From: Flavobacteriales bacterium
Lineage (GTDB): Bacteria > Bacteroidota > Bacteroidia > Flavobacteriales_F > PHOS-HE28
Assembly (NCBI GenBank): GCA_016704485.1
Contig: JADJAA010000001.1
Location: forward strand, 1,554,824-1,618,823
DNA length: 64,000 nucleotides
Direction: 5' to 3'
Both the position numbers and the translations under genes were made by a program. Positions 23,389 to 38,822 of this stretch are shown one piece after another. How positions within the stretch are numbered: position 1 is the stretch's first letter; each line of letters begins with the position of its first letter. Under the pieces are notes generated by a model. It saw only the letters and a list, made by a program, of their open reading frames with translations. It searched no databases and had not been told where the DNA came from.

Positions 23389-23460
23389 CTACTCCCCCCA
23401 AAACGCCCCCTGCAGCAAAAGCCCGAACAAGTCCTCGCTCCGGCGTAGGTTCGCAGTGGA
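23389..23460 (-). pseudogene. Orphan 3' end of an hsdS gene (about 23 codons plus stop)
   Basis: Hand translation STANLRRSEDLFGLLLQGAFWGE*. The intact hsdS C-terminus is AASLHQSEGLFGSLLQGAFRGELGN*. 52 of 63 nt are identical to 24315-24377 in a hand alignment. Confidence 0.7.
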
Positions 23461-23476
23461 ACACCGGTAGTGCTGT

Positions 23477-24274: not shown

Positions 24275-24302
24275 TATGTCCGTGCTGCGTGATCCTCTTC
24301 CG

Positions 24303-25448
24303 TTAGTTCCCCAACTCCCCCCGGAACGCCCCCTGCAACAAACTCCCGAACAAGCCCTCGCTCTGGTGTAAGCTTGCTGCAATGCAGGTGCGCTGCTTTT
24401 GGATGTTATGGAGTAATGTTCCGAACCGTTCCTGCGCTTTGAGTGGAACAAGTGGAATACGCATTCTTCGGATCTCTTCTGTTGTGATATTCTTGAAGAT
24501 GGCTCCCACCGACTTATCGCTGACCCCTACGGCGAGCATATTCAGATAATGGTAAATGAACCTCAGGTCAAAGCCTTTGTCAAAGTCACGAAATCCTGCA
24601 AATCCATCGTGTATGCAACAGTCGACCATCAGGATCGCTGGCAGGCCTGGCTTCCCACTTACAGCCATCACCAAGTCACCACGTTTCATTGGACGACTGC
24701 GCTGTGAGCCTTCAATCGTGAGTGAATCGATCTGAGGTGTCACATACATCCCATCACGGGTCAAGTCTGCAACCATTAGGCGAGGCACGGGACCTCCAAA
24801 GTATCGCGCATCACCCTGTGGTCTTGGACTGCTCCCACGGACGACCTCACACAACGAACCCAAGTCTACAGTTTCCCACCCCCTCTCATTCCGCACCGGA
24901 TCCCCGAACAGCTCCAAGAACAGGCTCTTGGCAAGTTGGTCGTAAACCGCCAAGGTTCGCCGGTCGTTGGCCACCAGCGCCTGCGCCTTGTCCAAGATCG
25001 CCGCGATGCGACGCTGCGTGGGGAGGGCGGGCGGAGCAAAAGGTAAGCTGCGGATATCTTCTATCTTGAAGCCTTTCACCGTCGCTCCGTTTCCACGCGA
25101 AATGAAGTAATTCTCTTTCGCAAATAGAAAGTAATAGAGATAGGTCTGGTCAACCTTGCCATTTATAACAAGCGCCTTCAGATCCTGATTGAATGCCATC
25201 GGCACGTTCGTGATCGACATGCGCCCAAGAGCCATGCGTGTTGCAATCAATAACGTTCCGGCTGGAACTATCTGTGTCGCACAATTATCTACACCGCGTT
25301 CAGTGATCGACTCGTACGTCTCCGAAATATGCTTTGATGTAAGATCCTTCACCGTAGCCCATGGGACATCACCTTCCCAATAGCCCTCGATATCGCGATT
25401 AGGAGTACCACCACCAAGTATCTGGATATAATTGCCCAGCACGCTCAT
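24303..25448 (-). CDS. hsdS: Type I R-M specificity subunit
   Basis: 381 aa with two TRD halves, each followed by a conserved helical spacer (...LPTQRRIAAILDKAQALV... and ...LKAQERFGTLLHNIQKQR...). 4-nt ATGA overlap with hsdM. Confidence 0.9.
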   Translation of the reverse strand: MSVLGNYIQILGGGTPNRDIEGYWEGDVPWATVKDLTSKHISETYESITERGVDNCATQIVPAGTLLIATRMALGRMSITNVPMAFNQDLKALVINGKVDQTYLYYFLFAKENYFISRGNGATVKGFKIEDIRSLPFAPPALPTQRRIAAILDKAQALVANDRRTLAVYDQLAKSLFLELFGDPVRNERGWETVDLGSLCEVVRGSSPRPQGDARYFGGPVPRLMVADLTRDGMYVTPQIDSLTIEGSQRSRPMKRGDLVMAVSGKPGLPAILMVDCCIHDGFAGFRDFDKGFDLRFIYHYLNMLAVGVSDKSVGAIFKNITTEEIRRMRIPLVPLKAQERFGTLLHNIQKQRTCIAASLHQSEGLFGSLLQGAFRGELGN

Positions 25449-27004
25449 TTCAACAACGCCTCCAATTCGTCCAACAATTTCACACGGTCGGCGGCCAATT
25501 GGCGCAGGCCGGGTTCTCCCTTTTTGCCGTTGATCAGCTCGGCGGGCGTGGCATACTTCACTTGCTCGTACACCACCTCCTTGTAGCGGTTTATGCTGAG
25601 GTCCCAGTTGTTGGCCTTCAAGTCCGCAAAGGGCACCAGAAAGCTCTGGTCGGTTCGTGCACGTTTGCTTTCACCTTTCGCACCGAAGCGCGCTAGGATG
25701 TCGGCGATGTTGCTTTTCTCGTGCAGCGTTTTCGCTCCCTTGGTGGGCTCGGTGTATTGGAGTTCAAGCTGTTCTTCGGTGAGTTGCGGTGTGCGCTTAT
25801 CATCCAACGAGAAACCGTCGGCACGCATGTCGTAGAACCACACGTTGTCGGTACCGCCGCTATCGGTCTTGGTAAAGATCAGCACCGCGGTGCTCACCCC
25901 TGCATAGGGTTTGAATACGCCGCCGGGCATGCTGATCACCGCTTGCAATTGCTGGCGTTCGATCAGTTCCTGCCGCAGTTGCTTGTGCGCCTTGCTGCTG
26001 CCGAAGAGCACACCATCGGGCACGATCACAGCTGCGCGGCCACCTGTGCGGAGCATGCGCAGGATCAGACCTAGGAAGAGCAACTCGGTCTTCTTGCTGC
26101 TCACTGTGCGCAAGATCGCAGGGTCCACAGCGTCGTGGTCCAAGCTGCCTTTGAACGGCGGGTTCGCTAACACCAGCGAGAAGCGCTCACTGATGTGGCC
26201 TTGCTCTTTGCTAAGCGCATCCTGCCCGATCAGTTGCGGGTGCTCAATGCCGTGCAACATCATGTTCATGGCACCAATGCGCAACATGCTGGAGTCGAAC
26301 TCGACCCCGGTGAAGAGGTTGGTGTTGTAATGCTCGCGGAACTTCTTCTCGTGGAAGCTGTCCGGGTGCGTGCGCCGTATCTCTTCGCTTGCCGCCACCA
26401 AGAAACCGCACGTGCCGGCACTGGGATCGCAGATGGTATCGGTGGGTTGCGGAACCATCAGTTGCACCATCATGCGGATGATGTGGCGCGGTGTGCGGAA
26501 CTGGCCGTTGCGTCCTGCCGTAGCGATCTTGCCCAGCAGGTATTCATAGAGGTCGCCCTTGGTGTCGCGGTCGGCCATGTCCAGCGCGGCGATCATTTGC
26601 ACGGCGCGGTCCAGCAACCGCGCGGAGGGGATCATGAACGTAGCACCCTTCATGTGCTCACTGAACACGCTGCCCTCGCGCCCCATCTGCTTCATGAAAT
26701 CGAAGACCGTGAGGTTATCGTTCTTCGCATCAGGCCGCGTAAAGAGCGCGAACAATGTATCCGGGTCCTTGTCCTTGAAACTGCTCCACCGCAACGCCTT
26801 GTACTTGGGCGGGTAAATGGGATCCTTGATGGGCCCACCGAGCTTGGCGCTCTGCTTCTCTTTGGTGGTCTGGATCTCATCCATCCGGCGCAAAAAGAGC
26901 AAGTAGGTGATCTGTTCGATAACCGTGAGCGGATTGGCGATGCCGCCAGTCCAGAAGGCCTCCCAGAGGCGGTCGACGTCGGAGCGGAGTGTTCCGTTTA
27001 TCAT
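25445..27004 (-). CDS. hsdM: Type I R-M DNA methyltransferase subunit
   Basis: HsdM N-terminal domain. FRTPRHIIRMMVQLM, motif I ICDPSAGTCGFLV and motif IV VLANPPFKGS are all intact. Confidence 0.92.
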   Translation of the reverse strand: MINGTLRSDVDRLWEAFWTGGIANPLTVIEQITYLLFLRRMDEIQTTKEKQSAKLGGPIKDPIYPPKYKALRWSSFKDKDPDTLFALFTRPDAKNDNLTVFDFMKQMGREGSVFSEHMKGATFMIPSARLLDRAVQMIAALDMADRDTKGDLYEYLLGKIATAGRNGQFRTPRHIIRMMVQLMVPQPTDTICDPSAGTCGFLVAASEEIRRTHPDSFHEKKFREHYNTNLFTGVEFDSSMLRIGAMNMMLHGIEHPQLIGQDALSKEQGHISERFSLVLANPPFKGSLDHDAVDPAILRTVSSKKTELLFLGLILRMLRTGGRAAVIVPDGVLFGSSKAHKQLRQELIERQQLQAVISMPGGVFKPYAGVSTAVLIFTKTDSGGTDNVWFYDMRADGFSLDDKRTPQLTEEQLELQYTEPTKGAKTLHEKSNIADILARFGAKGESKRARTDQSFLVPFADLKANNWDLSINRYKEVVYEQVKYATPAELINGKKGEPGLRQLAADRVKLLDELEALLK

Positions 27005-27017
27005 GGGGTGAAGATGG

Positions 27018-28226
27018 TCAATGTTTGGTGATGGTGGTAAATTCCCATTTAGACTGTCCGTTCAGTTCGACTTGTTTGACTTGGCCGGAAACGAGGTCGC
27101 CATCCACAAGGCTGTGTAGTTTTATCAGATCCTTGTTGATGTAGGCATCGCCAGCATGGGCGTAGGTGTTATCGTTGCGTTTCTTGACCACGACGCGGCC
27201 CAGTTCTTTGGTATCACCGTCGAGTAGGGGAACTCCGTCGCTGCCTACCGCTTCCTCGTGTAGCCAGGTTCGGTTCGCCTTGGGGTCTGGATACTTTGCT
27301 GCGAACTTCTTGAACCAGACCAACACGTCCATGAGCTGGAACACGATGGTGCTCAAGAGGTAAGGCGTTACACCATGCTCGTGTAGTGCTTCGAGATTGT
27401 CCAAGCTGTAATTGGAATCCTCAGCGGTCTCGTCCGCATGCGAGCTTTCGCTGGTTACCCGCAGAATATTGTCCAGTGCATCGGCAACGATCCGGGGCAT
27501 CATCGGGCGGTCACACTTCAAGGCCACCGTGGCCGAAGAACGGCTCGGATAAAGCACGCGCTCGCCCCGCAGGAACAGTGCTGACAAGCGTTGGTTGACC
27601 CTCGGCTTTACAAGGACATCGGGTAGTAACCCGTGCCGATGCGCGGCATAGAAGAAGTGCTCCACTACCTGACGCAAAGGATTCATGAATAAGCGATCAC
27701 TACCGGACTTGTCCCCGCGATCCACAAAGCGCAATGCGTCCATGAACATAGGGTCGGCAACGGCATCCAAATAAGGAACTTGGAGCACTGCGAACACATC
27801 GGCATACCTATCACGAAGCGCTTGCTCGTTGCTTCGATCAACAAGGCTCTGTAGTTCCGCGTATAGGTCCTTCTCGTTCCCTTTCAAGTACCGCCGCTCA
27901 TCACGACGGTTCTTTGTTGCACCTTCGTCAAAGCCGGTATTGATCACATACGGAATATGAATGTTCGCTCCTTTCCATTGGTCCAGATCCCTGCGGGCTT
28001 CATGCAGGTGGTCGATGTCCTCGGTGGGTGAATGTTCATCCACCTGCCCTCTGGCATCGAGGATCAAGGCTTTGAAACGCTTTTCTCGGATCGGTTCCTT
28101 AGCCTCGGCCCAGGTCTTGAACCAAGTCACTTCGAAACCGTGCGCGACCGCCTTAGCAATTTGGGCTTTGGCGTATGCTTCATCGTCATCTACTAAGGCG
28201 ATCGGAACCAGGTCAAACAGTGTCAT
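27018..28226 (-). CDS. Receiver (REC)-domain protein with DUF4145/HEPN-like middle domain and C-terminal beta-rich domain
   Basis: ATG 28226 gives MTLFDLVPIALVDDDEAY...FKALILDARG...IPYVINTGF, a REC-like acidic pocket, Asp and Thr. The middle region NPLRQVVEHFFYAAHRHG ... LDNILRVTSESSHAD parallels RRALERTVHWLY ... YIRRTGNAAAHDK in the HsdR N-terminus (Rx4-6H). 14-nt overlap with the upstream kinase gene. Confidence 0.6.
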   Translation of the reverse strand: MTLFDLVPIALVDDDEAYAKAQIAKAVAHGFEVTWFKTWAEAKEPIREKRFKALILDARGQVDEHSPTEDIDHLHEARRDLDQWKGANIHIPYVINTGFDEGATKNRRDERRYLKGNEKDLYAELQSLVDRSNEQALRDRYADVFAVLQVPYLDAVADPMFMDALRFVDRGDKSGSDRLFMNPLRQVVEHFFYAAHRHGLLPDVLVKPRVNQRLSALFLRGERVLYPSRSSATVALKCDRPMMPRIVADALDNILRVTSESSHADETAEDSNYSLDNLEALHEHGVTPYLLSTIVFQLMDVLVWFKKFAAKYPDPKANRTWLHEEAVGSDGVPLLDGDTKELGRVVVKKRNDNTYAHAGDAYINKDLIKLHSLVDGDLVSGQVKQVELNGQSKWEFTTITKH

Positions 28227-30909
28227 GCGAAATGGGAAGGTCAATGGTGAAGTGGACAAACATTTGAGTGGATACAGCTTCCCGGTCAAATGGTATCCAA
28301 TGATTCTCGTCTATACGTTGATCGCGTTCAAAACTCGATCGGTACTTGTCATCGCTCACTGGCAGGTTACCCGACACGAACTTTCCGCCGTGGTTGGCAA
28401 TGATCCGATCGATCAGATAGCCGCCTATGCCATTGCCCTTTTTCATGTCCAGACGCTTGCCAAAGGTGATGAAGTGCTCATGGGTAAAACCTTCCGGAAA
28501 GGGTTTGCCGTTGTTCTCGATGGTGATAACCAATCGCGTTCGTTGAGGTTCAATACGCGTTGATACCCTCACCCGTACGACCAATTGTTCCTGATCCGAT
28601 CGAAGGCCGTGTTTGGCCATATTGATGAACAAGTTCTGGATGACAAGTGCGAACTGTTGTTGATCGACATGTGCGATCACTCCTTCAGTGGTTTCTAGTC
28701 CAGCTTCACATTCGAAAATGACCATAAGCGCTTTCACCTGGTCGGCAAGTCCGCGCAATTCCGTTCGGAACAGTCGACGAAGGTCGATGGGCACTGGTCT
28801 TAGACTCTCCTTATCTGATCGGATCACCGCATTGATCAATTGAAAGAGACCGCGCATGCGATCCAATCCACTATTCATTGTATCTAGGGCGGTGGTGATC
28901 GTAGACTTTTCAACTGGGCCCAAACTGTTGAGTACTGCATGGATCTCGGCCATGGGTTGCTCCAGAAGCGCCACCACCGGGCGGAAGCTGTGCTCCACTG
29001 CACCAAGGATCTGCCACTCATCAGTGGAGAGGCCATGCTGTTTTTCCTGCCTAGCGATCTCCTCCTTCTTCGCCAATAGAATGGATTCCTTCCGTTCGCG
29101 AACAATGCGCAGTTGATCCTTGAGTTCGGGTAAGCGAACCCGAATTCTCAGAACGTCTGCTTTGGCTATGAAAGCGATCGTACTTCCTTGGTGGTATGCG
29201 TCGAGCTGATCTTGGATCGTGGGCGTTCTTAGTTCTGTTGCGAGGTATTCGGTATTAGCACGAGCCGCATCCACACGGAACATGAATACATTGCTTCCCA
29301 CGGCGATCGGTCCATCTACCGGGTCGAATAAGGTCGGCTTCAACTTTCCGCCCACCCGTGCAAGTAGCAGTGCTGGCACATCCAATCTCTTCAGTCCCTT
29401 CTTGACAGAACCGGTTTCATGTTGCCCATCACGCGCCGTGCGCCTCATGTCGAGGACATCCGTTGAAAGCTCGGAGACCTGGAAGAGCGGCAGACCGGCG
29501 AGGTCGCCCATGGAGAGGATATCGTCCGAAAGCACGGTGCCGAGTTCAACCACGTCCACACCATCCGCTTCGGCCACGATATGGGCTTGTTGAAGCAGGC
29601 TGGCAAACCGACTCATGCTCCAAGACACATGCTCGTCGGAACGGATGTCAGAAACCTTCACGTCCAAAACACCTTGTAAGGTATAAGTGCTATCCAACGC
29701 CTGCAGCACGCTGCTAACATCGAGTGTTATTTCGGATCGCGTCTTGTATGTGACATGCAAACCCGCATCCACGAATCGGACAGGCGCATTCGTTGGCCGT
29801 GATCCATTCAAAACAATGATCGAGGTCTTTATCCCTGAGTAGGGTGTGAAGGATCCTGCTGGCAACGAGATCACTGCTTCGAGCAACCCTAGGTCAAGAA
29901 TCTGTTTGCGTAGATGCGCTCTGTTGATGCCGAACAACATACTCTCGGGCACAAGGATCACCGCCTTCCCCTCGGGTGCAAGCCGCTTGAGGATCTGGTT
30001 GATCGCTATCTCATAGGGTTCTATCGCGCGTAGCCTTCCTTCCTCTTTCACTCGACCACCGAAAGGTGGTGCACTAATGCAATGCGTATACTTCTTGTTG
30101 GAAGCACCGGGTGCTGATGGTTCGTTCAAGGCGGCGTTCAGGTCTGCCCCGAGAATACGTGCTTGCAGCGTATTGAAGAAGAATGCGAATTGGTTGAAGA
30201 ATACCGCGTCGAGCTTTACAGAATGTGGCGCACGCGCTGCGAGCACTGCTGGCAATACGCTCGCATCCGCAGCTGGGTCGAATACCTCTTCCACGTCTCC
30301 GAGCAGCCGCGCCATAAGCATTGCAACGGACCATGGCGTACAGAACTGGCCCATGTGACTATCGCGCAAGAGGAGGCTACGCATTTCTTCCACATACTCG
30401 ATCGGTTCCAAACCCGCTGATGCCATGAGAAAAAGCTCAGTTTGTACTGGGCTTGTTGCCAGTGCGCCGCCATTTTTAAGAAGATACGAATGCTGCTCCC
30501 CAAAGTCCTTAAACTCCTCTGCCAATTCATTCAAGGTGGACCATAATCCTTCTCCTCTTTGAGCGATCGTAGGCAACACTCCTGCTGGGCGCACGGCCAA
30601 GGCATAAATGAGTGCCAGCTCCAAGCCAACGGTCTGCGCGAAGGGCATGGATCGTAGCGCATTGCGCAATTCCCATGCGTGGGCCTGAAAAAAACGGACC
30701 CGGTTCAACATACGTTCTGGATCCAACTGTAAACTACCGTCATCGGATATACTAACACGCCCACCAGACAACTCCACCTCAGCAAGCAAGCTCGATGGCT
30801 CAACGTCCTTCTGGCTCAATAAGACCTTGACGATATTACAGACACCCTCCAAAGTATCCGAGCCGTTCTTCAGGCGAAGGGCACATATTATGGCGTCTAT
30901 CAGTTTCAT
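28213..30909 (-). CDS. Chimeric sensor histidine kinase: HsdM-like N6-MTase fold (degenerate motifs) + HsdS-like TRD + DHp/HATPase_c
   Basis: MTase-like: GQFCTPWSVAMLMARLL, VFDPAADASVLP (motif I lacks GxG), HCISAPPFGG (Ala where N/D/S is expected), KAVILVPESMLFG...LLEAVISLPAGSFTPYSGIKTSIIVLN. TRD-like: VELGTVLSD...LLLARVGGKLKPTLFD...VGSNVFMFRV...YLATELRT. Kinase: H-box GAVEHSFRPVVALL, N-box VIQNLFINMAKHG, ITIENNGKPF, GNGIGGYLIDRII. Confidence 0.7.
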   Translation of the reverse strand: MKLIDAIICALRLKNGSDTLEGVCNIVKVLLSQKDVEPSSLLAEVELSGGRVSISDDGSLQLDPERMLNRVRFFQAHAWELRNALRSMPFAQTVGLELALIYALAVRPAGVLPTIAQRGEGLWSTLNELAEEFKDFGEQHSYLLKNGGALATSPVQTELFLMASAGLEPIEYVEEMRSLLLRDSHMGQFCTPWSVAMLMARLLGDVEEVFDPAADASVLPAVLAARAPHSVKLDAVFFNQFAFFFNTLQARILGADLNAALNEPSAPGASNKKYTHCISAPPFGGRVKEEGRLRAIEPYEIAINQILKRLAPEGKAVILVPESMLFGINRAHLRKQILDLGLLEAVISLPAGSFTPYSGIKTSIIVLNGSRPTNAPVRFVDAGLHVTYKTRSEITLDVSSVLQALDSTYTLQGVLDVKVSDIRSDEHVSWSMSRFASLLQQAHIVAEADGVDVVELGTVLSDDILSMGDLAGLPLFQVSELSTDVLDMRRTARDGQHETGSVKKGLKRLDVPALLLARVGGKLKPTLFDPVDGPIAVGSNVFMFRVDAARANTEYLATELRTPTIQDQLDAYHQGSTIAFIAKADVLRIRVRLPELKDQLRIVRERKESILLAKKEEIARQEKQHGLSTDEWQILGAVEHSFRPVVALLEQPMAEIHAVLNSLGPVEKSTITTALDTMNSGLDRMRGLFQLINAVIRSDKESLRPVPIDLRRLFRTELRGLADQVKALMVIFECEAGLETTEGVIAHVDQQQFALVIQNLFINMAKHGLRSDQEQLVVRVRVSTRIEPQRTRLVITIENNGKPFPEGFTHEHFITFGKRLDMKKGNGIGGYLIDRIIANHGGKFVSGNLPVSDDKYRSSFERDQRIDENHWIPFDREAVSTQMFVHFTIDLPISHDTV

Positions 30910-30971
30910 GCAACGGGGGTCAAAGTAAGCGGTGGAGGGTTATGGTGTAGATGTGTTTGCAGGTTATGATC

Positions 30972-32234
30972 TCAAGCGACTTTCTCCAGTCGGTTTGTCG
31001 GCAGAAGTTGGGCAGCCATACGATCCATGACCTCCCATTCCGGACGTGTGTACGAGTTGCTCTCCGTGACCACCGGGATCCTGAATTCGCCCATGGCATC
31101 CTCGCGCATAGCCCATTGATCCTTCTGGTCGTAGAGCTTTGTTCCGGGCAAAAGCATCAGCGGCCAAGCCTTAACGTCCCTGCAGCCTTTGGATAAGAGG
31201 TGGTCGATACTACGCTGGAAACTTTCCAAGGTCTGTCCGGGCAACCCGTAGATCAAACTCACTTCGAAAGGAATCTCGCGCTCCACAAGCTGTTCAATAG
31301 CAGCATCGACAAGATCCATCCGATTGGCGCGGTCAATTTTCTTGGACACTGCATGGTCCGTGGTCTGCAACCCGAACTCCAAGTGGAAGTTGGCTTGCGT
31401 ACAAAGGTCCAGGAATGCATTAACCTGTTGGCCTCGGATATTCTCAAAGCGCGATTGCAGGGTGAAGGTGGAGCGCGTACGGAGTTGAACGATCTCTTGC
31501 ATTATATCCAGGCACTCCTTCCCAGCGTTGAAGATGGGGTCGAGTATGTTCACGCGTTGCACACGATGTTCAGTGAGAAATGCTAACTCTTTAAAGACTT
31601 TATCCAGTGGGTGCTTATGCACGCGGTGAGTGGCGAGGTCGCGGTGTGCGCAAAATGAACACCGGTAGGGGCAGCCGCGTTTGGTCTCCAACCGTACCAT
31701 ACCGGCTCCCATTGGTACAGGCAATTCGCCAGTGAGATACGGTGAGGCCAGTTGTGTGAAGTCCACTGGTACGTTCACGAACACGGGTTCGTCGGCATCG
31801 AGATGGTCCGTCAATTCGGCAAAGGCTTGTTCGGCTTGTCCGGAGATGAAGACCTGGCAATCCGGATACCGACGCAGCAATTCTGCTCGGTTCCCGTAGG
31901 TGACTTGATACCCTCCGAGGACCACCTTGCCAAGGAACCCAAGACGACGAAGCAATGCGATGATGCCATTGGTGAGGTACTCGTTCCAGATGTAAGCCGA
32001 GAGCGCGATGGCGTTAAAGCGGCTCACATCAAGCGCCGCGAGTTGCACTTCGAATTGCTCGGGTGTGGCCGTGCCGCCGTGTTCGAGCATGTTGATCGAG
32101 AGGTGTTCCACGTGCATCTGTCCACGCAGCCGTTCATTACTCCGTTGGTGTGCCAAGAGAGATGCGATCGCCAAGGGCTTGGTGATCTCACCGTGCCGGA
32201 TCAGGTCGAAGGATATGATGAGCGTGTTCGTCAT
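30972..32234 (-). CDS. Radical SAM enzyme with N-terminal B12-binding-like domain
   Basis: ATG 32234 (MTNTLIISFDL...). Rossmann-like N-terminal domain VVLGGYQVTY. CxxxCxxC cluster in ETKRGCPYRCSFCAHRD. Confidence 0.8.
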   Translation of the reverse strand: MTNTLIISFDLIRHGEITKPLAIASLLAHQRSNERLRGQMHVEHLSINMLEHGGTATPEQFEVQLAALDVSRFNAIALSAYIWNEYLTNGIIALLRRLGFLGKVVLGGYQVTYGNRAELLRRYPDCQVFISGQAEQAFAELTDHLDADEPVFVNVPVDFTQLASPYLTGELPVPMGAGMVRLETKRGCPYRCSFCAHRDLATHRVHKHPLDKVFKELAFLTEHRVQRVNILDPIFNAGKECLDIMQEIVQLRTRSTFTLQSRFENIRGQQVNAFLDLCTQANFHLEFGLQTTDHAVSKKIDRANRMDLVDAAIEQLVEREIPFEVSLIYGLPGQTLESFQRSIDHLLSKGCRDVKAWPLMLLPGTKLYDQKDQWAMREDAMGEFRIPVVTESNSYTRPEWEVMDRMAAQLLPTNRLEKVA

Positions 32235-32343
32235 TGGTCCTCGCCACCAAGGGTCTATATGGTTGGATAATCGCTCAACCAACGAACTTCCCTATGGCAA
32301 CGGACCAAAAGTCCCGGTCACCTGTGCAGTCTATCTGCACAGT

Positions 32344-33354
32344 TCATTTCGCGTAGTTCTTCTTCATTTCCATCACCCGCAAAAGCAGCGCTTGGCGTAG
32401 TTCTTCCGGCGCAATAACCTGTAGCCCTTCTCCATAAGATAACAACAAGGCTTGTAGCTCGTAGTTCAGCTTCACTTCTAAACGAATAGTCGCGCCGCCG
32501 TCTTTTCTCTTCACTACTTTCTGCGAACCGTGTATAGGCTTTGACTCCAAATAAGGCCAAAGTCTATCCGTGACTTGGATCTTGACAACAACAGCTTCTT
32601 GATCCGCAGGTACACTTACACCAACAACATCCTCAAAATACTCCGTGAAATCCACCTCATCGTTCGGTATGTATTTCACCTTACTGGGTACAATATCCCG
32701 GATCCGGTCCAAGGCCATATTGACAATACGCCCCTCTTCCTCAAGACCAAAAACAAACCAACGGTTGTTATACTGTTTCAAGTAATACGGATGGAGCAAC
32801 ACAATGCTAGGCGCATTTTGCTTGAAGCCTTGGTAAGATATTTCCAAGGCTTGCTCATTGATGATCGAATGAAATAATGTGGTAATGTGCTCGGCACCTT
32901 TCAAATACGGGTTCTGCTCAAACTCGATGACCTGAGCAGCCCCTTGTTTCAGCCCGAAACCAGCTTCCAACCGAGCAACTAATTCATCTACCCATTCAAA
33001 CTGCGGCATGCCCTTAAATCGGCTCAGCGTTAAGAGCGCCTCCTTCAATTGTTCCGCTTCGCTCTCGTTCAGCGGTCGCTTGTTGATAGAGAATTCAAGG
33101 TCACTGTACCGGTAAAAAGTACGCTTTCCGTCTTTGTGTTTCTCCAGCGGGATAGCCCATCCTTGTTCGCTCTCCATGTACTTGATGTCCTCGAAAACTT
33201 GGCGGCGGCTGATGCTTGCACCTGCTCCGGTGAACTCCTCCAACGCCATGTTGCAAGCTTCCATCAGGTCTTCGATGAAATACTCGCGCCCACGGTTCGC
33301 AAAGCAACGGTCCATTGTCTGATAGCGAATAAGGGCATTCTTATTTACGGGCAT
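32344..33354 (-). CDS. WYL-domain transcriptional regulator (BrxR/CapW-like layout: wHTH + WYL + C-terminal domain)
   Basis: N-terminus MPVNKNALIRYQTMDRCFANRGREYFIEDLMEACN. WYL core VLLHPYYLKQYNNRWFVFG...NMALDRIRDIV. It is the first gene of the minus-strand operon. Confidence 0.8.
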   Translation of the reverse strand: MPVNKNALIRYQTMDRCFANRGREYFIEDLMEACNMALEEFTGAGASISRRQVFEDIKYMESEQGWAIPLEKHKDGKRTFYRYSDLEFSINKRPLNESEAEQLKEALLTLSRFKGMPQFEWVDELVARLEAGFGLKQGAAQVIEFEQNPYLKGAEHITTLFHSIINEQALEISYQGFKQNAPSIVLLHPYYLKQYNNRWFVFGLEEEGRIVNMALDRIRDIVPSKVKYIPNDEVDFTEYFEDVVGVSVPADQEAVVVKIQVTDRLWPYLESKPIHGSQKVVKRKDGGATIRLEVKLNYELQALLLSYGEGLQVIAPEELRQALLLRVMEMKKNYAK

Positions 33355-33489
33355 CTCGGGTGGCTGAAATTAGGGCTGAACGGTGTTACCAGCCTCGTCT
33401 TTTATGGTCCTTCAGAAATACAAAAAACGGACTAATGCTTCTGCGCTCACTTTTCAAAAATCAATTGCATAGAGCAAATTAATCTTCCG

Positions 33490-33904
33490 CTGCCAGCTGG
33501 GTGGTAACCTGCACCAAGCTTGATGGTACCACACACCAAGCTTAGTGGTACCCTGTGCCAAGCTTAGTGGTACCTTGCACTAAGCTTGATGGTACCCTGC
33601 ACTAAGCTTAGTGGTACCCTGCACTAAGCTTAGTGGTACTCTGCACTAAGCTTAATGGTACCCTGCACCCAGTTGGGTGGTACCCTCCACCCAGCAGGGT
33701 GGTACCCTGCACCCAGTTGGGTGGTACCCTGCACTAAGCTTAGTGGTACCCTGCACTAAGCTTAGTGGTACTCTGCACTAAGCTTAATGGTACCCTGCAC
33801 CCAGTTGGGTGGTACCCTGCACCCAGTTGGGTGGTACCCTGCACCCAGTTGGGTGGTACCCCGCACTAAACTTAATGGTACCCGACACCAAGCTCAATAG
33901 TGCA
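33490..33904. repeat. Tandem array 1: about 19 contiguous 22-bp units, each carrying a 14-bp palindrome plus GGTACC
   Basis: The units are CTGCACTAAGCTTAGTGGTACC (core CACTAAGCTTAGTG) or CTGCACCCAGTTGGGTGGTACC (core CACCCAGTTGGGTG). Units at 33597-33728 are repeated at 33729-33860 as a 132-bp (6-unit) higher-order repeat. Edge units are degenerate. Confidence 0.95.
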
Positions 33905-33993
33905 TTCCATTGATCTTGAGGGAGTTCACCTGAACCAGCATTGCGCTTGTGCCTCGGGAACTTGAGGAAGTAAAAGGTGAAATGGTCCGCTAT

Positions 33994-34202
33994 CTATACC
34001 ATACTACTATAGGGCACATTGAACCTTAGTCTGGACTTCCGCCTTCGGAACTGCATTCGCTGCCAGATGATCATTGGGGTGCAATTATCCCAAACCTATA
34101 CCATATTACTATAGGGGGCATAAGCCTCCATCTCCGGCTCGTGAACTTTGGAGGTAAAGATGGTGTGATTTGACCTACTACCTATACCATATTACTATAT
34201 GG
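33994..34202 (+). promoter_or_regulatory. Three dispersed copies of a 21-bp element CTATACCATA(T/C)TACTATA(G/T)GG
   Basis: Copies at 33994-34014, 34096-34116 and 34182-34202, with starts 102 and 86 bp apart, all in the same orientation. Two copies end in ACTATAGGG, identical to positions -6 to +3 of the T7 promoter consensus. Function is unknown. Confidence 0.5.
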
Positions 34203-34291
34203 TGCTTTGCACCGTGCGCCTCGTGGTGCACACTTGTGGTTCAGAACTGCTTCATGTAGGCCTGGTGCAAGAGGCTGTATTTGTTCCATTG

Positions 34292-34753
34292 GTACATGGC
34301 CTTGTCCCGTAAGTACATGTACTTGTGCCTTTGGTACATGTACTTGTCCCGTGAGTACATGTACTTGTCCCGTAAGTGCATGTACTTGTCCCGTGAGTAC
34401 ATGTACTTGTCCCGTGAGTACATGTACTTGTCCCGTAAGTACATGTACTTGTCCCGTAAGTACATGTACTTGTGCCGTTGGTACATGTACTTGTCCCGTA
34501 AGTACATGTACTTGTGCCGTTGGTACATGTACTTGTGCCGTTGGTACATGTACTTGTGCCGTGAGTACATGTACTTGTGCCGTGAGTACATGTACTTGTC
34601 CCGTAAGTACATGTACTTGTGCCGTTGGTACATGTACTTGTCCCGTAAGTACATGTACTTGTCCCGTAAGTACATGTACTTGTCCCGTAAGTACATGTAC
34701 TTGTCCCGTAAGTACATGTACTTGTGCCGTGAGTATGTGTACCTGTACCATGT
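34292..34753. repeat. Tandem array 2: about 22 contiguous 21-bp units built on the palindrome GTACATGTAC
   Basis: Units are GTACATGTACTTGTCCCGTAA, with variants ending ..GTGCCGTTG, ..GTCCCGTGA and ..GTGCCGTGA. Adjacent units form GTACATGTACTT-GTCCCGT-AAGTACATGTAC, a 12-bp stem with a 7-nt loop. The period is a multiple of 3, so all six frames appear open. Confidence 0.95.
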
Positions 34754-35042
34754 GTAACGATACTTCAAGTTACAGTACACTTACTTGATACAGAGGTGCT
34801 TATGCCATTGCGTGGGGTATGCCTGCTTGTAACACGGGGACTGATAACCCACTCAGCGTCAGGCGTAAAGAGTGATCCGAACGTTGCCCGTGCTGCATAA
34901 CCCATCCTCGAGCGGCCGCGTGCGGGCTACAGTAAATGAAAAGAACCCCGGCCAGTTGTGCTAGGATTCTTCCGTTCGGGGATGGTGTATGAGTGGCAGG
35001 GTCGTCTGCTATGCGGCAGACTGACCCTGAGCGGGTTTAAAA

Positions 35043-35327
35043 ATGCGCCGCTGCACTACGCAATGGGTAGCGGATGCGCAGTTCGCTTACCTGGTGGACC
35101 CCGCATCGCCCGAAGCGGAACTTCCGCACAAAGCAACCCTCTTGGTGCACTGCCCGGAACGCGGCGAGATCCGGCTGAATATATTGTCCAACGGTTCCAT
35201 CGCCGAACTACAGTTCACGGACTGCTATGAACCGATGTCCAGAACCACCAGCATAGCAGAAGAATCCGATCCGATGTCTCCTTTTACCGTGGTACATCGG
35301 CATTGGGATCACGGCAGTGAGGTGTAG
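35043..35327 (+). CDS. Possible 94-aa hypothetical protein
   Basis: It is the only ORF in the 2.1-kb gap with ordinary amino-acid composition (…DAQFAYLVDPASPEAELPHKATLLVHCPERGEIRLNILSNGSIAELQFTDCYE…). A strong plus-strand terminator follows 22 nt later. It has no homolog I recognise. Confidence 0.3.
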   Translation: MRRCTTQWVADAQFAYLVDPASPEAELPHKATLLVHCPERGEIRLNILSNGSIAELQFTDCYEPMSRTTSIAEESDPMSPFTVVHRHWDHGSEV

Positions 35328-35348
35328 GTGTGCCCCTCATTTGAATGG

Positions 35349-35384
35349 AACGACCCCGCTGTTTTTGCTGGGTCGTTTTTTTTG
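35349..35384 (+). terminator. Rho-independent terminator
   Basis: AACGACCC (35349-35356), 13-nt loop, GGGTCGTT (35370-35377), followed by a T run. Confidence 0.7.
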
Positions 35385-35457
35385 CTGGGGGGCGCGAGAG
35401 ACGAGCTTCCATTCTTGCAGACCATGGATCAATGGGCATTGGATGGAATGTAAATTG

Positions 35458-36426
35458 TCAAGCCTTTATGAACTCGTTCACAAAAGCTTGTACAAATTGC
35501 TTGGCTAAAGCAGAGTAAGGCTTGGTCGGCTCTGTCAGTTGCATCAGCAATTCCACCTCTTGCTCGATCATCGCCTCAATTGTTCCTGTGGTCTTTTTTA
35601 CAAGTTTGTTCAATGTACGTGTTGGTACTTTATCCTTGAATGATCTGATATCCTTACCGATCTCGTTCGATAGGTCGATCAATTTCAAGATCATCTCAAA
35701 ACGCATTTTTAATCGCAGAATGTATTCTCTGCGCATATCGACCAACCCCTTTCTATTCAAGCCGTAGATCTCAATGGAACGGATCGCTTTTTGCCAATGG
35801 ATCTCCCTTTTTATCACGTTCTCTGATGAGGGCAAAGCAATGGCCTTCATTACTCCTGAGTCATCGTATTCCAAGTATTTGCTAGGTTCGTCCGTACAAG
35901 GGTTCAACAACAAACATTGTTCGCCTGAAATATCGAACAGCGGCGCACTCGCACGCATTGTTTCATCAAACAATGGAAAAGAGTTTGCCTTTCCTTGTTT
36001 TAGCTTTTTCCATTGATAGGACCCATCTATGGGGTTCTTTCGATACACATATTGATAGCGCGCTCTATTGCAGTCTATGCATGAAGGGAGTAGATTATCC
36101 CATTCCATTGCGAGCTTAGCATATACACCTACTTTAGTTTCGGTCTTGTTCGTCAATTCTACGAGCACTTCGGATTTGGGTCTGAAATGCTCAATATCCA
36201 GCGGTTGTGTGCGCGTGTAAGGTGATTCGCAATATGCACATTTACCATGGAACATAAGCTCCAACAACTCAGGCACTTTTTCGTGCTTGTAAAGCTTGAA
36301 ATCGGGCTTTAGGTCCTTGTGGAAATCGCTTCGAAGCCATGCTTCCACCTCTTCCTTTTCTTTGTTGAAGGCATCCGAGGTTATGGTAAGTGCCTGCGGG
36401 GCATTTACGCGTTTTCGTTTGATCAT
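35458..36426 (-). CDS. PtuB-like HNH endonuclease (TIGR02646-type)
   Basis: HGKCAYCESPYTRTQPLDIEHFRPKSE...WDNLLPSCIDCNRARY, followed by LLLNPCTDEPSKYLEYDDSG. It starts 8 nt downstream of the ATPase gene. Confidence 0.75.
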   Translation of the reverse strand: MIKRKRVNAPQALTITSDAFNKEKEEVEAWLRSDFHKDLKPDFKLYKHEKVPELLELMFHGKCAYCESPYTRTQPLDIEHFRPKSEVLVELTNKTETKVGVYAKLAMEWDNLLPSCIDCNRARYQYVYRKNPIDGSYQWKKLKQGKANSFPLFDETMRASAPLFDISGEQCLLLNPCTDEPSKYLEYDDSGVMKAIALPSSENVIKREIHWQKAIRSIEIYGLNRKGLVDMRREYILRLKMRFEMILKLIDLSNEIGKDIRSFKDKVPTRTLNKLVKKTTGTIEAMIEQEVELLMQLTEPTKPYSALAKQFVQAFVNEFIKA

Positions 36427-36434
36427 TGAAGAGC

Positions 36435-38822
36435 TCAGTTGTTCAGGCGCCAGGAAGCATCCGTTAAAGCCTCTATTATCTTCTTAGTGGGTTTGGGAAA
36501 TCGTACGTTGGTCGGTGACTTCATCAAGTGCTCATCGATCAGCCTCAACAAGTACATATCACGCCGACTACTACCGAGAATGCTCTTTCTGTTGAGTCGT
36601 TCATGTAGATCCTTCAGTTGTGCCTTACCCGAATCATCTAACGCCGATGCCTTCGCTATGAGGTTGTAATAGCGGTCAAAGAATTCAGCTGTGCGCGGGT
36701 CCAGGGTTGTACTTAATCCGAATAATTCTGAGGTAAGGAGCTGGTCGGAACGTAAGCCAGCCGGCGAATCCATGTCGTCGTGTACTGTAGCCATGGAAGG
36801 GTCGTCCACATTTCTCTTGACCAATGCTACTTCACCAGCACCCAGCCCATGCAGGCATAGTGGCTCATGGGTGCTCGCGATGAATTGGATAAGCGGAAAT
36901 GTCTGTTCCAATCTTCTTAAGATGCTCATGCGCCAACTCGGGTGCAGATGTGCACCGATCTCATCAATTAGTACCACGCCTCTAATTTGATGCGTATCCG
37001 TTGGATTGCCTGCCATTATATCACAGGCTAGACCAACCATGGTCTTGTAACCCGCACTAAAATGCTTTAAGCGGGTGAATGACCCGTTCACGAAAAGCCC
37101 GAATTGTGTTGGCTTGTTGTTTTCAAATTGAAAGTCGAGACGTGTAGAATTATCTGTAAGATCCAGCAGGTCCTTCAAGGCCACACAAACATCGAAGAAC
37201 TGCTGTTGATTCTTTACCACTATGGTACGTAACCACTCTTCGGCATCTACCATGGGATAGAACGGGTCAAAGAGGTTCTGGATGTTCTTATTCACTCCCC
37301 TTTTCTCTAACAGATCAGAACTCTTGCCTTTTTGCGGCAGCAATCGAACAGGCCCGTATGCACGAAGAAATATATTCGGGACCTCACCTTGCTCCCATTT
37401 TAATCCGCTATTCGTGATGTTCACTACGATAGGATCTGTTCGCTGATGAAAGTAGACTTCAATTCTACCTGACGTAGCTCCACGCCTCAAGCTAGTGCTG
37501 AAATGCTCCTTCATCTTACTCAAGGCTTTCTTGCCGCTGAGTATCAATGCAAGTGCTTCGAGCAGCGAACTTTTTCCTGACCCGTTCTCACCCAGCAGCA
37601 TTTTCCAACCGCTGTGTCGAAAGGTTTCCTGTTGTGGAGATTCGGAGCCGTTTTCGTCGATCGTCTTCCGGCGTTCCTCTTGATTGCCTCCCGCTGTTTC
37701 CGTGTTCAAGTCTAAGTTCAGTTCACGTTCTGTGTCTACTAGGTCTTTCGGGCGTTCTTGGGGGATCAAGAATACAGCCTTCTCGAAGATCCTGTAATTC
37801 TCAACTATTAATTTGCTAATGGTCAGCGCTTGATGCGCGACTTTCTCCTTGGACGGCGCATTCTCTGTGGCGGTTTTCGGAGGAGTTCTTTGCGCCTCGG
37901 AACTCGTCTTCTTTGGAGACTCCTTATTAGCGCGTGTTGATCCCGGTTTCGTACGCGCTCCGGTCTCAGCTTCTAATAAGGACCCAGGCTTATTGAGCCC
38001 TTTGCTTATTGTTTCGACGTGCAGGCCGTCGCCTTGAATGAGGATTTTTAGTCCGAAGTCCTCCTTAAGAACATGGTTACTCAGATTCCGCATTGGACTT
38101 TGCGGGTCTATCAGTCCTTTCAAGAAGTGATCTTCTTCTACGGTTCGAGGTAGTTTCTCACCCTTTTTTTTAAGAACCAGAGACTTTGTCAAGTCGCGAA
38201 CTCGGTGAACCATATCACTCCTTCTATTGATGGCGGATTTCCGGTTCAGGTCCAGAGTTTCAATGGTCACCTCGGCTCGTCGCTTCTGCATGTGCCCTAA
38301 AGTGGAACGAGGCTTTATCATTCCATTAGATGAATAGTCGAAGTACTCCTCCGGATCGTCTTCATAAGGATTCAGCAAATACGGTTCTTCTTTCTCGAGC
38401 GCACTCCCCCGAGGCTGGTCATCAGCATGCTTGATAGGAACACGTTTTCCGGCGATGGGAAACTGTGCTCCCTTTGCAAAACTGCACTCATTGCATATGG
38501 GTAGCATGTTCTGCCAATCAAACAATAGCCACCAATAGTGGTCGCCAACCTGCTCATTTGGTTCCACTTTTACCGGTCGGTACAGGTCGATGTGTACCGT
38601 CTTTTCATTCAAGGGTGCTTCGCAATACGCACATGCATTATTGGAGGTTTCCAGAAGATCTCGGTTTACATCACGAGAATACTGTGGAGCCTTGTGTCTT
38701 ATCTGGCTTCGCTTCTCTAAAGGTTGCGCATAAAACTTCCGAAGTTCATTGAACGTCTTCTCTCCTTCCGTACTGTACTGTAGGTCTGGTGGAGATACTT
38801 TACTTCGGTTCAGTTTTCTCAT
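36435..38822 (-). CDS. Fusion of a PtuB-like (HNH-derived) N-terminal domain to a PtuA/AAA_15-type ABC-like ATPase
   Basis: N-terminus NNACAYCEAPLNEKTVHIDLYRPVKV...WQNMLPICNECSFAKG. Low-complexity linker (KPGSTRANKESPKKTSSEAQRTPPKTATENAPSKEK). Walker A LLGENGSGKSSLLEAL. Walker B VVLIDEIGAHLHPSW. FIASTHEP. Confidence 0.75.
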   Translation of the reverse strand: MRKLNRSKVSPPDLQYSTEGEKTFNELRKFYAQPLEKRSQIRHKAPQYSRDVNRDLLETSNNACAYCEAPLNEKTVHIDLYRPVKVEPNEQVGDHYWWLLFDWQNMLPICNECSFAKGAQFPIAGKRVPIKHADDQPRGSALEKEEPYLLNPYEDDPEEYFDYSSNGMIKPRSTLGHMQKRRAEVTIETLDLNRKSAINRRSDMVHRVRDLTKSLVLKKKGEKLPRTVEEDHFLKGLIDPQSPMRNLSNHVLKEDFGLKILIQGDGLHVETISKGLNKPGSLLEAETGARTKPGSTRANKESPKKTSSEAQRTPPKTATENAPSKEKVAHQALTISKLIVENYRIFEKAVFLIPQERPKDLVDTERELNLDLNTETAGGNQEERRKTIDENGSESPQQETFRHSGWKMLLGENGSGKSSLLEALALILSGKKALSKMKEHFSTSLRRGATSGRIEVYFHQRTDPIVVNITNSGLKWEQGEVPNIFLRAYGPVRLLPQKGKSSDLLEKRGVNKNIQNLFDPFYPMVDAEEWLRTIVVKNQQQFFDVCVALKDLLDLTDNSTRLDFQFENNKPTQFGLFVNGSFTRLKHFSAGYKTMVGLACDIMAGNPTDTHQIRGVVLIDEIGAHLHPSWRMSILRRLEQTFPLIQFIASTHEPLCLHGLGAGEVALVKRNVDDPSMATVHDDMDSPAGLRSDQLLTSELFGLSTTLDPRTAEFFDRYYNLIAKASALDDSGKAQLKDLHERLNRKSILGSSRRDMYLLRLIDEHLMKSPTNVRFPKPTKKIIEALTDASWRLNN

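What the first reader, a model, noticed from the sequence alone, without database searches (positions are those of the whole stretch)
33994..34202. Three same-strand copies of a 21-bp element ending ACTATAGGG, like the core of T7-group phage RNA polymerase promoters, all aimed at array 2
CTATACCATA(T/C)TACTATA(G/T)GG occurs at 33994, 34096 and 34182. Two copies match the T7 consensus TAATACGACTCACTATAGGGAGA exactly over -6 to +3 (ACTATAGGG). The upstream specificity region differs, as it does among T7, T3, SP6 and K11. No single-subunit RNAP gene is in the window. One speculative reading is that these are trap promoters. They would fire only when an infecting phage supplies its RNAP, transcribing the hairpin array and the 94-aa ORF downstream. 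They could equally be binding sites for a host protein.
Basis: inference. Interest (0 to 1): 0.55.

Follow-up and report, generated by a model that had tools for sequence, protein, structure and literature searches.

The report
Conserved head box of repeat arrays
The three 21-base copies are real and are the conserved "head box" found in front of long tandem-repeat arrays in a group of uncultured wastewater Flavobacteriales. Their likeness to T7 phage promoters is only partial and no phage carrying them was found, so they are more likely a host regulatory or promoter site than a phage trap.

Summary
CTATACCATAYTACTATAKGG occurs three times on the + strand (33994, 34096, 34182), against zero expected by chance. 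All three copies face the 21-bp x 22 array.

The same 19-20-nt box occurs in at least six other locus types from related Flavobacteriales MAGs. There are 1-4 copies per locus, each 42-109 nt upstream of a 21/42-bp-period palindrome-bearing array and pointing at it. The usual arrangement is regulator gene, box, array, then a conserved 210-aa Fn3 gene. The window genome appears to carry such a locus elsewhere. Homology between the two copies starts exactly at the box and ends at the array end, so the window copy is an orphan paralogue. Its downstream 94-aa ORF is a 5'-truncated gene fragment.

The T7 likeness is 12/20 identities with 9 contiguous, in register -17..+3. About 0.2% of random 20-mers reach such a run. 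Several facts weigh against the T7 reading:
- No single-subunit RNAP is in the window.
- No IMG/VR or INPHARED phage carries the box.
- More distant relatives have indels or have lost the T7-like half.
- One relative has the box reversed.

Best reading: a host cis-acting head box, probably a promoter or operator, of a new minisatellite module family. The trap-promoter idea is not supported but not excluded.

The parts
33994..34014 (+). Head box copy 1 (CTATACCATACTACTATAGGG). It is embedded in a 49-nt duplicated unit, 33977-34025.
34096..34116 (+). Head box copy 2 (CTATACCATATTACTATAGGG). It is embedded in the duplicated unit 34079-34127.
34182..34202 (+). Head box copy 3 (CTATACCATATTACTATATGG). 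This is the array-proximal copy, and homology to the paralogous module (L053) begins exactly here.
34203..34291 (+). Leader of 89 nt between box 3 and the array. It is homologous to the leaders of L028 and L053, with conserved ...GTGGTYCAGAAC...TGTTCCAKTGGTAC.
34292..34746 (+). Array 2: 21-bp unit x 21.7 (GTACATGTACTTGTCCCGTAA). Each unit has the 10-bp palindrome GTACATGTAC. Variation is confined to unit positions 15 and 19-21. The assembled copy number differs between strains.
33501..33894 (.). Array 1: 22-bp unit x 17.9 (GGTACC plus a 14-bp palindrome, CACTAAGCTTAGTG or CACCCAGTTGGGTG). It lies between the boxes and the WYL gene. All six frames contain stops. No counterpart was seen in the related loci examined.
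34747..35042 (+). Tail, a non-conserved sequence between array 2 and ORF94. It shows no significant similarity to the tails or 5'UTR motif of the Fn3-gene loci.
35043..35327 (+). 94-aa ORF. It is a 5'-truncated member of a small family of 125-185-aa proteins and aligns only with their C-terminal ~90 residues. No N-terminal part is found in any frame upstream.
32344..33354 (-). Neighbour gene: WYL/WCX-domain regulator (BrxR/CapW-like). It is the first gene of a candidate defence operon and is transcribed away from the boxes.

Best explanation
The three 21-mers are a local triplication of the 'head box' of a head-box/leader/minisatellite module. This module family is specific to a clade of uncultured activated-sludge Flavobacteriales. 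The box is a cis-acting DNA site read by a host factor with long, contiguous sequence specificity. It marks the upstream edge of the module and, in all well-preserved members, faces the array. The most likely role is a promoter, or a promoter-proximal operator, from which the leader and the palindrome-bearing repeat array are transcribed toward the downstream gene. The native arrangement is regulator gene, head box(es), ~40-110-nt leader, 21-bp-phased array, hairpin, then a 210-aa Fn3 gene. The window holds an orphan paralogue of that module, wedged between a WYL-led candidate defence operon and a Septu system, with no intact gene downstream. Shown: the family, its anatomy, orientation, boundaries and paralogy. 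Inferred: that the box acts in transcription and that the factor is host-encoded.
For: 1. An identical or near-identical box (17 or more of 20 nt) occurs in seven locus types: the window, L053-type, L028, L071, L070, L051 and L008-type. Each has 1-4 copies, always on the array-facing strand, with the last copy 42-109 nt from a 21- or 42-bp-period array. Flanks are unrelated.
2. The other ~38 metagenome hits are single copies without arrays. That number is about what chance would give by my own rough estimate.
3. The window module and the L053 module are paralogues. The L053 Fn3 protein (P0006) is on record on a contig of 2,152,179 bp, the length of the contig that carries the window locus. Homology runs from the first base of box 3 (34182) to the end of the array (34729) and nowhere else.
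4. The Fn3 gene follows the array in L051, L053, L058, L060, L062, L063, L064, L067, L070 and L071.
5. A regulator-type neighbour is common. A NarL-type response regulator is present in L028, L053, L062, L067/68 and L070. A divergent 184-aa protein is present in L008 and L051.
6. The box is an AT-rich, TATA-containing island in a genome where TATA occurs at 0.43 of expectation.
7. No known RNA family covers the region.
8. BrickBuilt, a leader/23-nt-repeat/tail element of Porphyromonas gingivalis, has measured promoter activity (PMC4596501).
Against: There are no transcript 5'-end data. No Bacteroidota-type -33 TTTG / -7 TAnnTTTG promoter (consensus from my own knowledge) was recognised by eye in or next to the box, and the sigma-70-type scan gave one weak hit. 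Nineteen contiguous conserved bases is unusual for a sigma-dependent promoter. In L068 a diverged box lies in reverse orientation. L064 has only an AT-rich island, and L062 and L189 have arrays but no box. The box is therefore dispensable for the array-gene arrangement. Array unit orientation flips between species, and sense versus antisense folding energies show no consistent bias. This argues that the arrays act as DNA rather than RNA. The window copy has no intact downstream gene to regulate.
Confidence: 0.5

Rival explanations
1. The boxes are promoters for a T7-type single-subunit RNA polymerase. The polymerase is supplied either by an infecting phage (the trap promoter idea) or by a resident gene elsewhere in the genome, and it transcribes the hairpin array.
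For: The box aligns with the T7 consensus in register -17..+3. It has 12/20 identities and 9 contiguous (ACTATAGGG), a run that 0.2% of random 20-mers reach against T7/T3/SP6/K11. The conserved block is contiguous, about 20 nt long, and ends in GG(G). Orientation is toward the array in seven locus types. Module homology starts at the box. In L008 four boxes are tandem at 23-24 bp, the length of a complete T7 promoter. The window copy sits in a defence island.
Against: No ssRNAP is in the window. No IMG/VR contig has the 21-mer or the 19-mer. The 5' 15-mer gave 117 single hits and the 3' 15-mer 42, all single. The 5' count is close to my rough chance estimate of about 110. In the stored stretch of a few kb around each of the loci I could read (159), the matched 23-mer did not recur, apart from three AT-rich, low-complexity cases. 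INPHARED has nothing beyond a 17-nt chance match. Relatives have indels between the 'specificity' and 'TATA' parts (L070, L060), loss of the TATAGGG half (L058) or reversal (L068). The box usually precedes a conserved chromosomal Fn3 gene. ORF94 is a truncated fragment.
Confidence: 0.07
2. The boxes are binding sites for a DNA-binding protein with a non-transcriptional role. They could be iteron-like sites, or boundary or recombination sites, that define and duplicate or maintain the minisatellite module. The phased palindromic arrays would act as a DNA-level nucleoprotein scaffold.
For: L008 has four head-to-tail boxes at a 23-24-bp period, like plasmid iterons. The module boundary lies exactly at the box. 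Array periods of 21/22/42/63 bp correspond to whole helical turns, while unit sequences turn over. Palindromes change symmetrically, for example GTACATGTAC / GTATATATAC / GTATGCATAC and CACTAAGCTTAGTG / CACCCAGTTGGGTG. Array orientation is not fixed and there is no strand bias in folding. A reversed box in L068 is tolerated. Copy number varies between strains.
Against: No rep, par, transposase or recombinase gene is consistently adjacent. Only two modules are known in the window genome and one hit in the species-representative genome scan, so it is not a multicopy mobile element. No inverted copy of the box or TIR was found. Strict orientation in the seven well-conserved loci is not needed for a simple binding site.
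Confidence: 0.2
3. The box is part of a transcript rather than a DNA site. It would be the 5' segment of a repeat-containing non-coding RNA, for example an antitoxin-like or sponge RNA processed into 21-nt hairpin units.
For: Array 2 units can fold as consecutive 7-8-bp hairpins (TGTACTT-GTCCCGT-AAGTACA, -5.7 kcal/mol each). The sense strand of array 2 folds 45 kcal/mol better than the antisense strand because of G-U pairs. Hairpins that look like terminators follow the arrays in the Fn3 loci; this is my reading of the sequence, and no terminator scan was run there. The layout of promoter region, repeats, hairpin and gene resembles type III toxin-antitoxin loci (own knowledge).
Against: The strand bias is not consistent across loci. 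L064 favours the antisense strand by 36 kcal/mol, and six further arrays (window array 1, L051, L008, L058, L070, L071) favour it by 4-8 kcal/mol. The stem extension is not conserved in L053; only the palindrome is. The box itself has no conserved fold. Position -18 varies, which breaks the only hairpin. There is no Rfam match. The downstream genes are an Fn3 protein or a truncated ORF, not an endoribonuclease.
Confidence: 0.1
4. The boxes are operators of the adjacent WYL (BrxR/CapW-like) regulator and control the neighbouring defence operon.
For: A WYL/WCX regulator gene starts at 33354, divergent from the boxes, at the head of a candidate defence operon. WYL regulators typically bind upstream of their own operon (own knowledge).
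Against: The boxes lie 640-850 bp from the WYL start, with the whole of array 1 in between. The same box occurs in L008, L028, L051, L053, L070 and L071, none of which has a WYL gene nearby. The box is not a palindrome.
Confidence: 0.05

Closest known systems
T7-group (Autographiviridae) single-subunit RNAP promoters
   Same: A contiguous conserved block of about 20 nt. It is AT-rich at the 5' end and has ACTATAGGG at the 3' end, in the same register (-17..+3). It is directional, sits at the head of what could be a transcription unit, and can occur in tandem.
   Different: Only 12/20 identical. No cognate polymerase and no phage with the motif were found. Homologous boxes tolerate indels, loss of the TATAGGG half and reversal. 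The location is chromosomal, in front of a conserved host gene.
BrickBuilt MITE of Porphyromonas gingivalis (PMC4596501)
   Same: It is from Bacteroidota and always intergenic. It has a leader, spacer-less tandem repeats of 23 nt (1 to 22.8 copies) and a tail. The repeats are imperfect, and segments have promoter activity.
   Different: BrickBuilt has 19 copies per genome, small terminal inverted repeats and conserved leader and tail. Here only two modules are known in the genome, no TIR was found, and the tail is not conserved. The array unit sequence differs between species while the 21-bp phase and a palindrome are kept. A 20-nt head box is the most conserved part.
BOX elements of Streptococcus pneumoniae (boxA-boxB(n)-boxC); own knowledge
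   Same: A modular intergenic element with a conserved head module followed by a tandemly repeated middle module, and it affects neighbouring gene expression.
   Different: BOX is high-copy and has 45-nt repeats in few copies and a conserved boxC. There is no sequence relation.
Plasmid iterons and type II partition centromeres (for example R6K and pPS10 22-bp iterons, and R1 parC, two iteron clusters flanking a promoter); own knowledge
   Same: Direct repeats of 21-23 bp phased with the helix. L008 has four tandem boxes. In the window two arrays flank a central region.
   Different: There is no rep or par gene nearby. There are 14-22 array units instead of 3-10. The locus is chromosomal and conserved next to an Fn3 gene.
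Type III toxin-antitoxin loci (ToxIN: promoter, 36-nt repeat array, terminator, toxin); own knowledge
   Same: The order is upstream element, tandem repeats, hairpin, gene, and the setting is a defence island.
   Different: The unit is 21 nt, not 36. There are 14-22 copies. The array orientation is not fixed. The downstream gene is an Fn3 protein or a truncated ORF, not a ToxN/AbiQ-type RNase.

Membership tests
T7-group ssRNAP promoter | Match to the ~23-bp consensus (-17 to +6), including the -12..-8 specificity block and the -4..-1 TATA, with +1 GGG | tested here: inconclusive
   12/20 identical in register, with 9 contiguous (-6..+3). The -15..-7 region differs at 7 of 9 positions, as it does between phages of the group. 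P is about 0.002 for such a run in a random 20-mer (consensus sequences from own knowledge).
T7-group ssRNAP promoter | A cognate single-subunit RNAP gene in the same replicon or in an infecting phage | tested here: not met
   All six window ORFs of 700 aa or more have other Pfam assignments. The rest of the genome could not be searched.
T7-group ssRNAP promoter | The same promoter recurs several times in a phage genome | tested here: not met
   IMG/VR gave 0 hits for the 21-mer and the 19-mer. The 15-mer halves gave single hits only, and their 23-mers do not recur in the stored stretch around each hit. INPHARED gave nothing.
T7-group ssRNAP promoter | Fixed spacing between the specificity region and the initiation site across functional homologues | tested here: not met
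   L070 has a 1-nt deletion and L060 a 3-nt deletion. L058 has the 3' half replaced and L068 has the box reversed.
T7-group ssRNAP promoter | Transcription initiates at the +1 G | not testable with these tools
   No transcript data are available.
BrickBuilt/BOX-type minisatellite MITE | A conserved leader followed by spacer-less tandem repeats, located intergenically | tested here: met
   Box plus leader plus array is found in seven locus types, and the leader is conserved among the window, L028 and L053.
BrickBuilt/BOX-type minisatellite MITE | Terminal inverted repeats and a conserved tail | tested here: not met
   No inverted copy of the box within 33355-35460 at up to 6 edits. The tails do not align.
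BrickBuilt/BOX-type minisatellite MITE | Many dispersed copies per genome | tested here: not met
   Two modules are known in the window genome. The scan of 185,579 species-representative genomes returned one stretch. Whole genomes were not scanned with degenerate models.
Plasmid iteron origin / partition centromere | An adjacent rep or par gene whose product binds the repeats | tested here: not met
   The neighbours are a WYL regulator, Septu, a response regulator, a 184-aa unknown protein and an Fn3 gene. There are no Rep or Par families.
Type III toxin-antitoxin | A repeat array directly upstream of a ToxN/AbiQ-like endoribonuclease gene | tested here: not met
   The downstream genes are Fn3 proteins or a truncated ORF with no family match.
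CRISPR array | Repeats separated by unique spacers | tested here: not met
   The units are contiguous, with no spacers.

The most novel reading that the evidence does not exclude
The head box is a genuine promoter for a highly sequence-specific, non-sigma RNA polymerase. That polymerase would be T7-like or otherwise single-subunit, carried by a still unsampled phage of this Flavobacteriales clade or domesticated in the host. The phased palindromic arrays would be transcribed into hairpin-concatemer RNA. In the defence-island copy, this RNA would act as an infection-triggered signal or decoy.
Probability: 0.06. Interest if true: 0.85.

Novelty: new variant of a known kind. Interest (0 to 1): 0.4.

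Why it matters
Non-coding minisatellites are rare in bacteria (PMC6749651) and their function is mostly unknown. Here a whole clade keeps a 21-bp-phased, palindrome-bearing array at the same place, in front of one conserved gene. The unit sequence turns over and the palindromes change symmetrically. In a sub-clade, a 20-nt box conserved base for base heads the module. That combination points to a sequence-specific factor and a structural, helical-phase role for the repeats. Both can be tested directly with the defined 21-mer as bait or as a reporter element. If the box were a single-subunit-RNAP promoter it would be the first host-encoded phage-polymerase sensor, but the present evidence makes that unlikely. 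In practice these arrays break short-read assemblies of abundant wastewater Flavobacteriales. Many contigs in this study end inside them.

Tried and rejected
1. Coding repeats. Array 2 is open in four frames, for example (S/G)TCTC(P/A)V heptads, but the peptides are not conserved between homologous arrays. Array 1 has a 22-bp period and stops in all frames. Rejected.
2. Known RNA families. Rfam gave only sub-threshold miRNA noise over the window region and nothing in ten related loci.
3. Phage origin. Five IMG/VR scans and one INPHARED BLAST were all negative or at chance level.
4. Box as hairpin or palindrome. CCTATA-N9-TATAGG exists only in copy 2. Position -18 varies between loci. Rejected.
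5. Sigma-70, sigma-54, ECF or Bacteroidota -33/-7 motifs. There was one weak sigma-70-like hit at copy 3. GGAAC upstream occurs only in the L028/L053 group. Nothing was consistent.
6. GTAC-specific restriction avoidance. GTAC is not depleted in the window, 255 observed against 242 expected.
7. A remnant of the Fn3 gene or its 5'UTR motif in the window tail. The alignment scores are no better than shuffles, and tblastn was negative. Rejected.
8. Function of the Fn3 gene. The AF2 model is good (pLDDT 89), but Foldseek matched only the Fn3 half.
9. The 184-aa divergent protein of L008 and L051. It has no Pfam, NCBIfam, PHROG or PDB match and only two clusters in the protein collection.
10. Strand asymmetry of array folding as a test for RNA function. 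The result was inconsistent between loci.

Full report
**1. Observation**

The 21-mer CTATACCATAYTACTATAKGG occurs exactly three times, at 33994, 34096 and 34182, all on the + strand. There are no other matches at up to 3 mismatches in the 64-kb window, and none in 100 dinucleotide shuffles. The copies are really about 49-nt units at 69-73% identity, spaced 102 and 86 nt, each carrying a piece of the downstream leader. They lie in a 1.7-kb intergenic region. To the left is a WYL/WCX regulator gene (32344-33354, minus strand). To the right is a 94-aa ORF (35043-35327). Two tandem arrays flank the copies. Array 1 is 22 bp x 17.9 (33501-33894) and array 2 is 21 bp x 21.7 (34292-34746). All three copies point at array 2.

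**2. Setting**

The window comes from a Bacteroidota chromosome. It has T9SS sorting domains, and identical proteins are named 'MAG: Flavobacteriales bacterium'. The element lies in a defence island. The island contains:
- a DEAD/UvrD helicase, GmrSD, and type I hsdR/S/M;
- an MTase-HATPase fusion, and a PDC-M51A radical-SAM protein (E = 6.6e-117) headed by the WYL gene;
- on the other side, a convergent Septu pair, PtuB and PtuA.

No ORF of 700 aa or more is an RNA polymerase.

Seven near-identical assemblies from activated sludge carry the same locus with the three 21-mers unchanged. The assembled array copy numbers differ between them.

**3. The box is a family**

A scan of species-representative genomes found one other genome, a Flavobacteriales MAG (L008). 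It has four head-to-tail copies of GTATACCATACTACTATAGGG at a 23-24-bp period, followed 42 nt later by an unrelated 42-bp-period array.

A metagenome scan for the 19-nt core gave 49 loci. About 38 are single hits in AT-rich or coding DNA without arrays, roughly the number I expect by chance. The remaining 11, representing four locus types, all have the box 42-90 nt upstream of, and pointing at, a 21- or 42-bp-period array. Two more types, L070 and L071, came from protein-guided retrieval.

The flanks are unrelated between types. The leaders of window copy 3, L028 and L053 are homologous.

**4. Native context and paralogy**

Downstream of the array, in the same orientation, lies a conserved ~210-aa protein with a three-helix N-terminal domain and a C-terminal Fn3 domain. 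It is seen in L051, L053, L058, L060, L062, L063, L064, L067, L070 and L071. It has 99 clusters in the protein collection, and all named ones are Flavobacteriales MAGs.

Every locus retrieved with DNA has a 21/42/63-bp-period array in front of this gene. The unit sequences differ, but each unit carries a short palindrome.

Neighbours are often a NarL-type response regulator or, in L008 and L051, a divergent 184-aa protein of unknown family. Restriction-modification genes are very often alongside.

The Fn3 protein of L053 is on record on a contig of the same length (2,152,179 bp) as the one that carries the window locus. The window genome therefore appears to have two modules. Their homology (76%) starts at the first base of box 3 and ends at the array end, with nothing outside.

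The window has no Fn3 gene. Its 94-aa ORF aligns only with the C-terminal ~90 residues of a 125-185-aa family, and no N-terminal part is found upstream. The window module is an orphan paralogue with a triplicated head.

**5. Testing the T7 reading**

The box aligns with the T7 consensus in register -17..+3 with 12/20 identities, 9 of them contiguous. About 0.2% of random or shuffled 20-mers reach such a run against T7, T3, SP6 or K11. The contiguity, the length and the GG(G) end fit a single-subunit-RNAP promoter better than a sigma promoter.

The specific predictions fail, however:
- No polymerase is in the window.
- IMG/VR has no 21-mer, 19-mer or array hit.
- The 5' and 3' 15-mers hit only single sites. 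The 5' 15-mer gave 117 hits, close to my rough chance estimate. The surrounding 23-mers do not recur within the stored stretch around each hit.
- INPHARED has no match.
- Across more distant Fn3 loci the 5' part, TATACCATACTA, is the better conserved half.
- The T7-like 3' half carries a T-to-G change in L071, a 1-nt deletion in L070 and a 3-nt deletion in L060. It is replaced in L058.
- The whole box is reversed in L068, reduced to an AT-rich island in L064, and absent in L062 and L189.

A polymerase with T7-like geometry would not tolerate these changes if those sites still work.

**6. What the arrays say**

The periods are whole helical turns: 21, 22, 42 and 63 bp. The palindromes change symmetrically. 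Examples are GTACATGTAC, GTATATATAC and GTATGCATAC, and in array 1 CACTAAGCTTAGTG versus CACCCAGTTGGGTG.

Array 2 can fold into consecutive 21-nt hairpins, and its sense strand folds better than the antisense strand. However, unit orientation relative to the box and the gene flips in L058 and L064. The strand bias is also inconsistent across 14 arrays. A DNA-level, orientation-free role is therefore at least as likely as an RNA role.

The arrays are not coding. The peptides are not conserved, and array 1 has a 22-bp period with stops in all frames. No Rfam family matches.

**7. Interpretation**

The best-supported reading is a host cis-acting head box of a minisatellite module. It is most likely a promoter or promoter-proximal operator that faces the array and the downstream gene. 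The window copy is a stranded paralogue. I put this at about 0.5, and the promoter sub-claim alone at about 0.35.

The rivals are:
- a non-transcriptional protein-binding, iteron-like or boundary site (0.2);
- an RNA-level element (0.1);
- a T7-type promoter (0.07);
- a WYL operator (0.05). The same box occurs in six locus types without WYL, and it is 640-850 bp from the WYL start.

**8. Comparison and novelty**

The closest published analogue is BrickBuilt of P. gingivalis. It has a leader, 23-nt spacer-less repeats and a tail, is intergenic, and has promoter activity (PMC4596501). The present module differs in several ways. It lacks TIRs and a conserved tail, is low-copy, is tied to one conserved gene, and keeps phase and palindromy rather than unit sequence. 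It is not a member of the T7-promoter, iteron, type III TA or CRISPR classes by the tests listed above.

I rate it a new variant of a known kind, an intergenic minisatellite module with a conserved head. It is of moderate interest.

Noticed in passing
window 35458-38822 (minus strand): A Septu system. PtuB is an HNH protein of 322 aa. PtuA is 795 aa and itself has an N-terminal PtuB-like HNH region (PADLOC E = 1.6e-157 for PtuA and 1.2e-68 for PtuB). The pair converges on the repeat module.
   Followed up: partly
window 27018-33354 (minus strand): A WYL/WCX regulator heads an operon. The operon has a B12-binding radical-SAM protein (PADLOC candidate PDC-M51A, E = 6.6e-117), an 898-aa N6-MTase/specificity/HATPase_c fusion with weak MADS mad2 similarity, and a 423-aa unknown protein. 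This is possibly an uncharacterised methylation-associated defence system. In two sister assemblies (L003, L004) the 898-aa gene is split, by frameshift or assembly error.
   Followed up: partly
window 10664-27004: The rest of the defence island. It has a 1610-aa DEAD plus UvrD double helicase, GmrSD, and type I HsdR/HsdS/HsdM. A class III adenylate/guanylate cyclase (21999-23375, + strand) is inserted between hsdR and hsdS.
   Followed up: no
window 35043-35327: The 94-aa ORF is the C-terminal two-thirds of a small, unannotated protein family of 125-185 aa with a conserved FDPxP...WP.LA..L..CT.QW motif. The window copy starts at the MRRCTTQW motif and lacks the N-terminus, so it is a gene fragment created at the edge of the module.
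   Followed up: yes
L053 11893-12528; L060 4001-4633; L062 4001-4651; L064 3001-3633 and others: A conserved ~35-nt motif, ATAACCAACGCTTTTGTGGGTACAGCATGAYAGGCCC, ends about 8 nt before the start codon of the Fn3 gene in every species. A strong hairpin precedes it. This is a candidate 5'UTR regulatory element with no Rfam match.
   Followed up: partly
L060, L062, L064, L067, L028/L033, P0019 contig: The array/Fn3-gene/GNAT locus lies next to restriction-modification genes (HsdM/S, MmeI-type, N6_N4 MTase) in most species examined. It may mark a defence-island hotspot.
   Followed up: partly
L008 397-993; L051 2571-2899; L189 232-831: A 184-199-aa protein starting MCLK..G.EL is divergently adjacent to the boxes or arrays in three species. 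It has no Pfam, NCBIfam, PHROG or PDB match and only two clusters in 5.8 billion proteins. An inverted repeat, AATACCCA-N4-6-(T)GGGTATT, lies in its upstream region.
   Followed up: partly
window 12704-12731; L008 2783, 3358, 4134, 4722, 5734, 7435: A ~28-nt sequence inside the window's helicase ORF matches (86-89%) a short element that recurs six times between small genes in the unrelated Flavobacteriales contig L008. This may be a REP-like or terminator repeat, or chance.
   Followed up: no
L062 2811-3200 and 4789-5931; L070 1-348; L058 1080-1200: Genomes of this clade carry many other intergenic tandem arrays, with periods of 8, 16, 17, 57 and 150 bp, close to the same locus. Non-coding satellites seem unusually common in these organisms.
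   Followed up: no
window 50712-52367; window 43701-43746: An IS with a DDE_Tnp_1_6/DUF772 transposase of 551 aa. Separately, a short 24-bp x 1.9 direct repeat.
   Followed up: no
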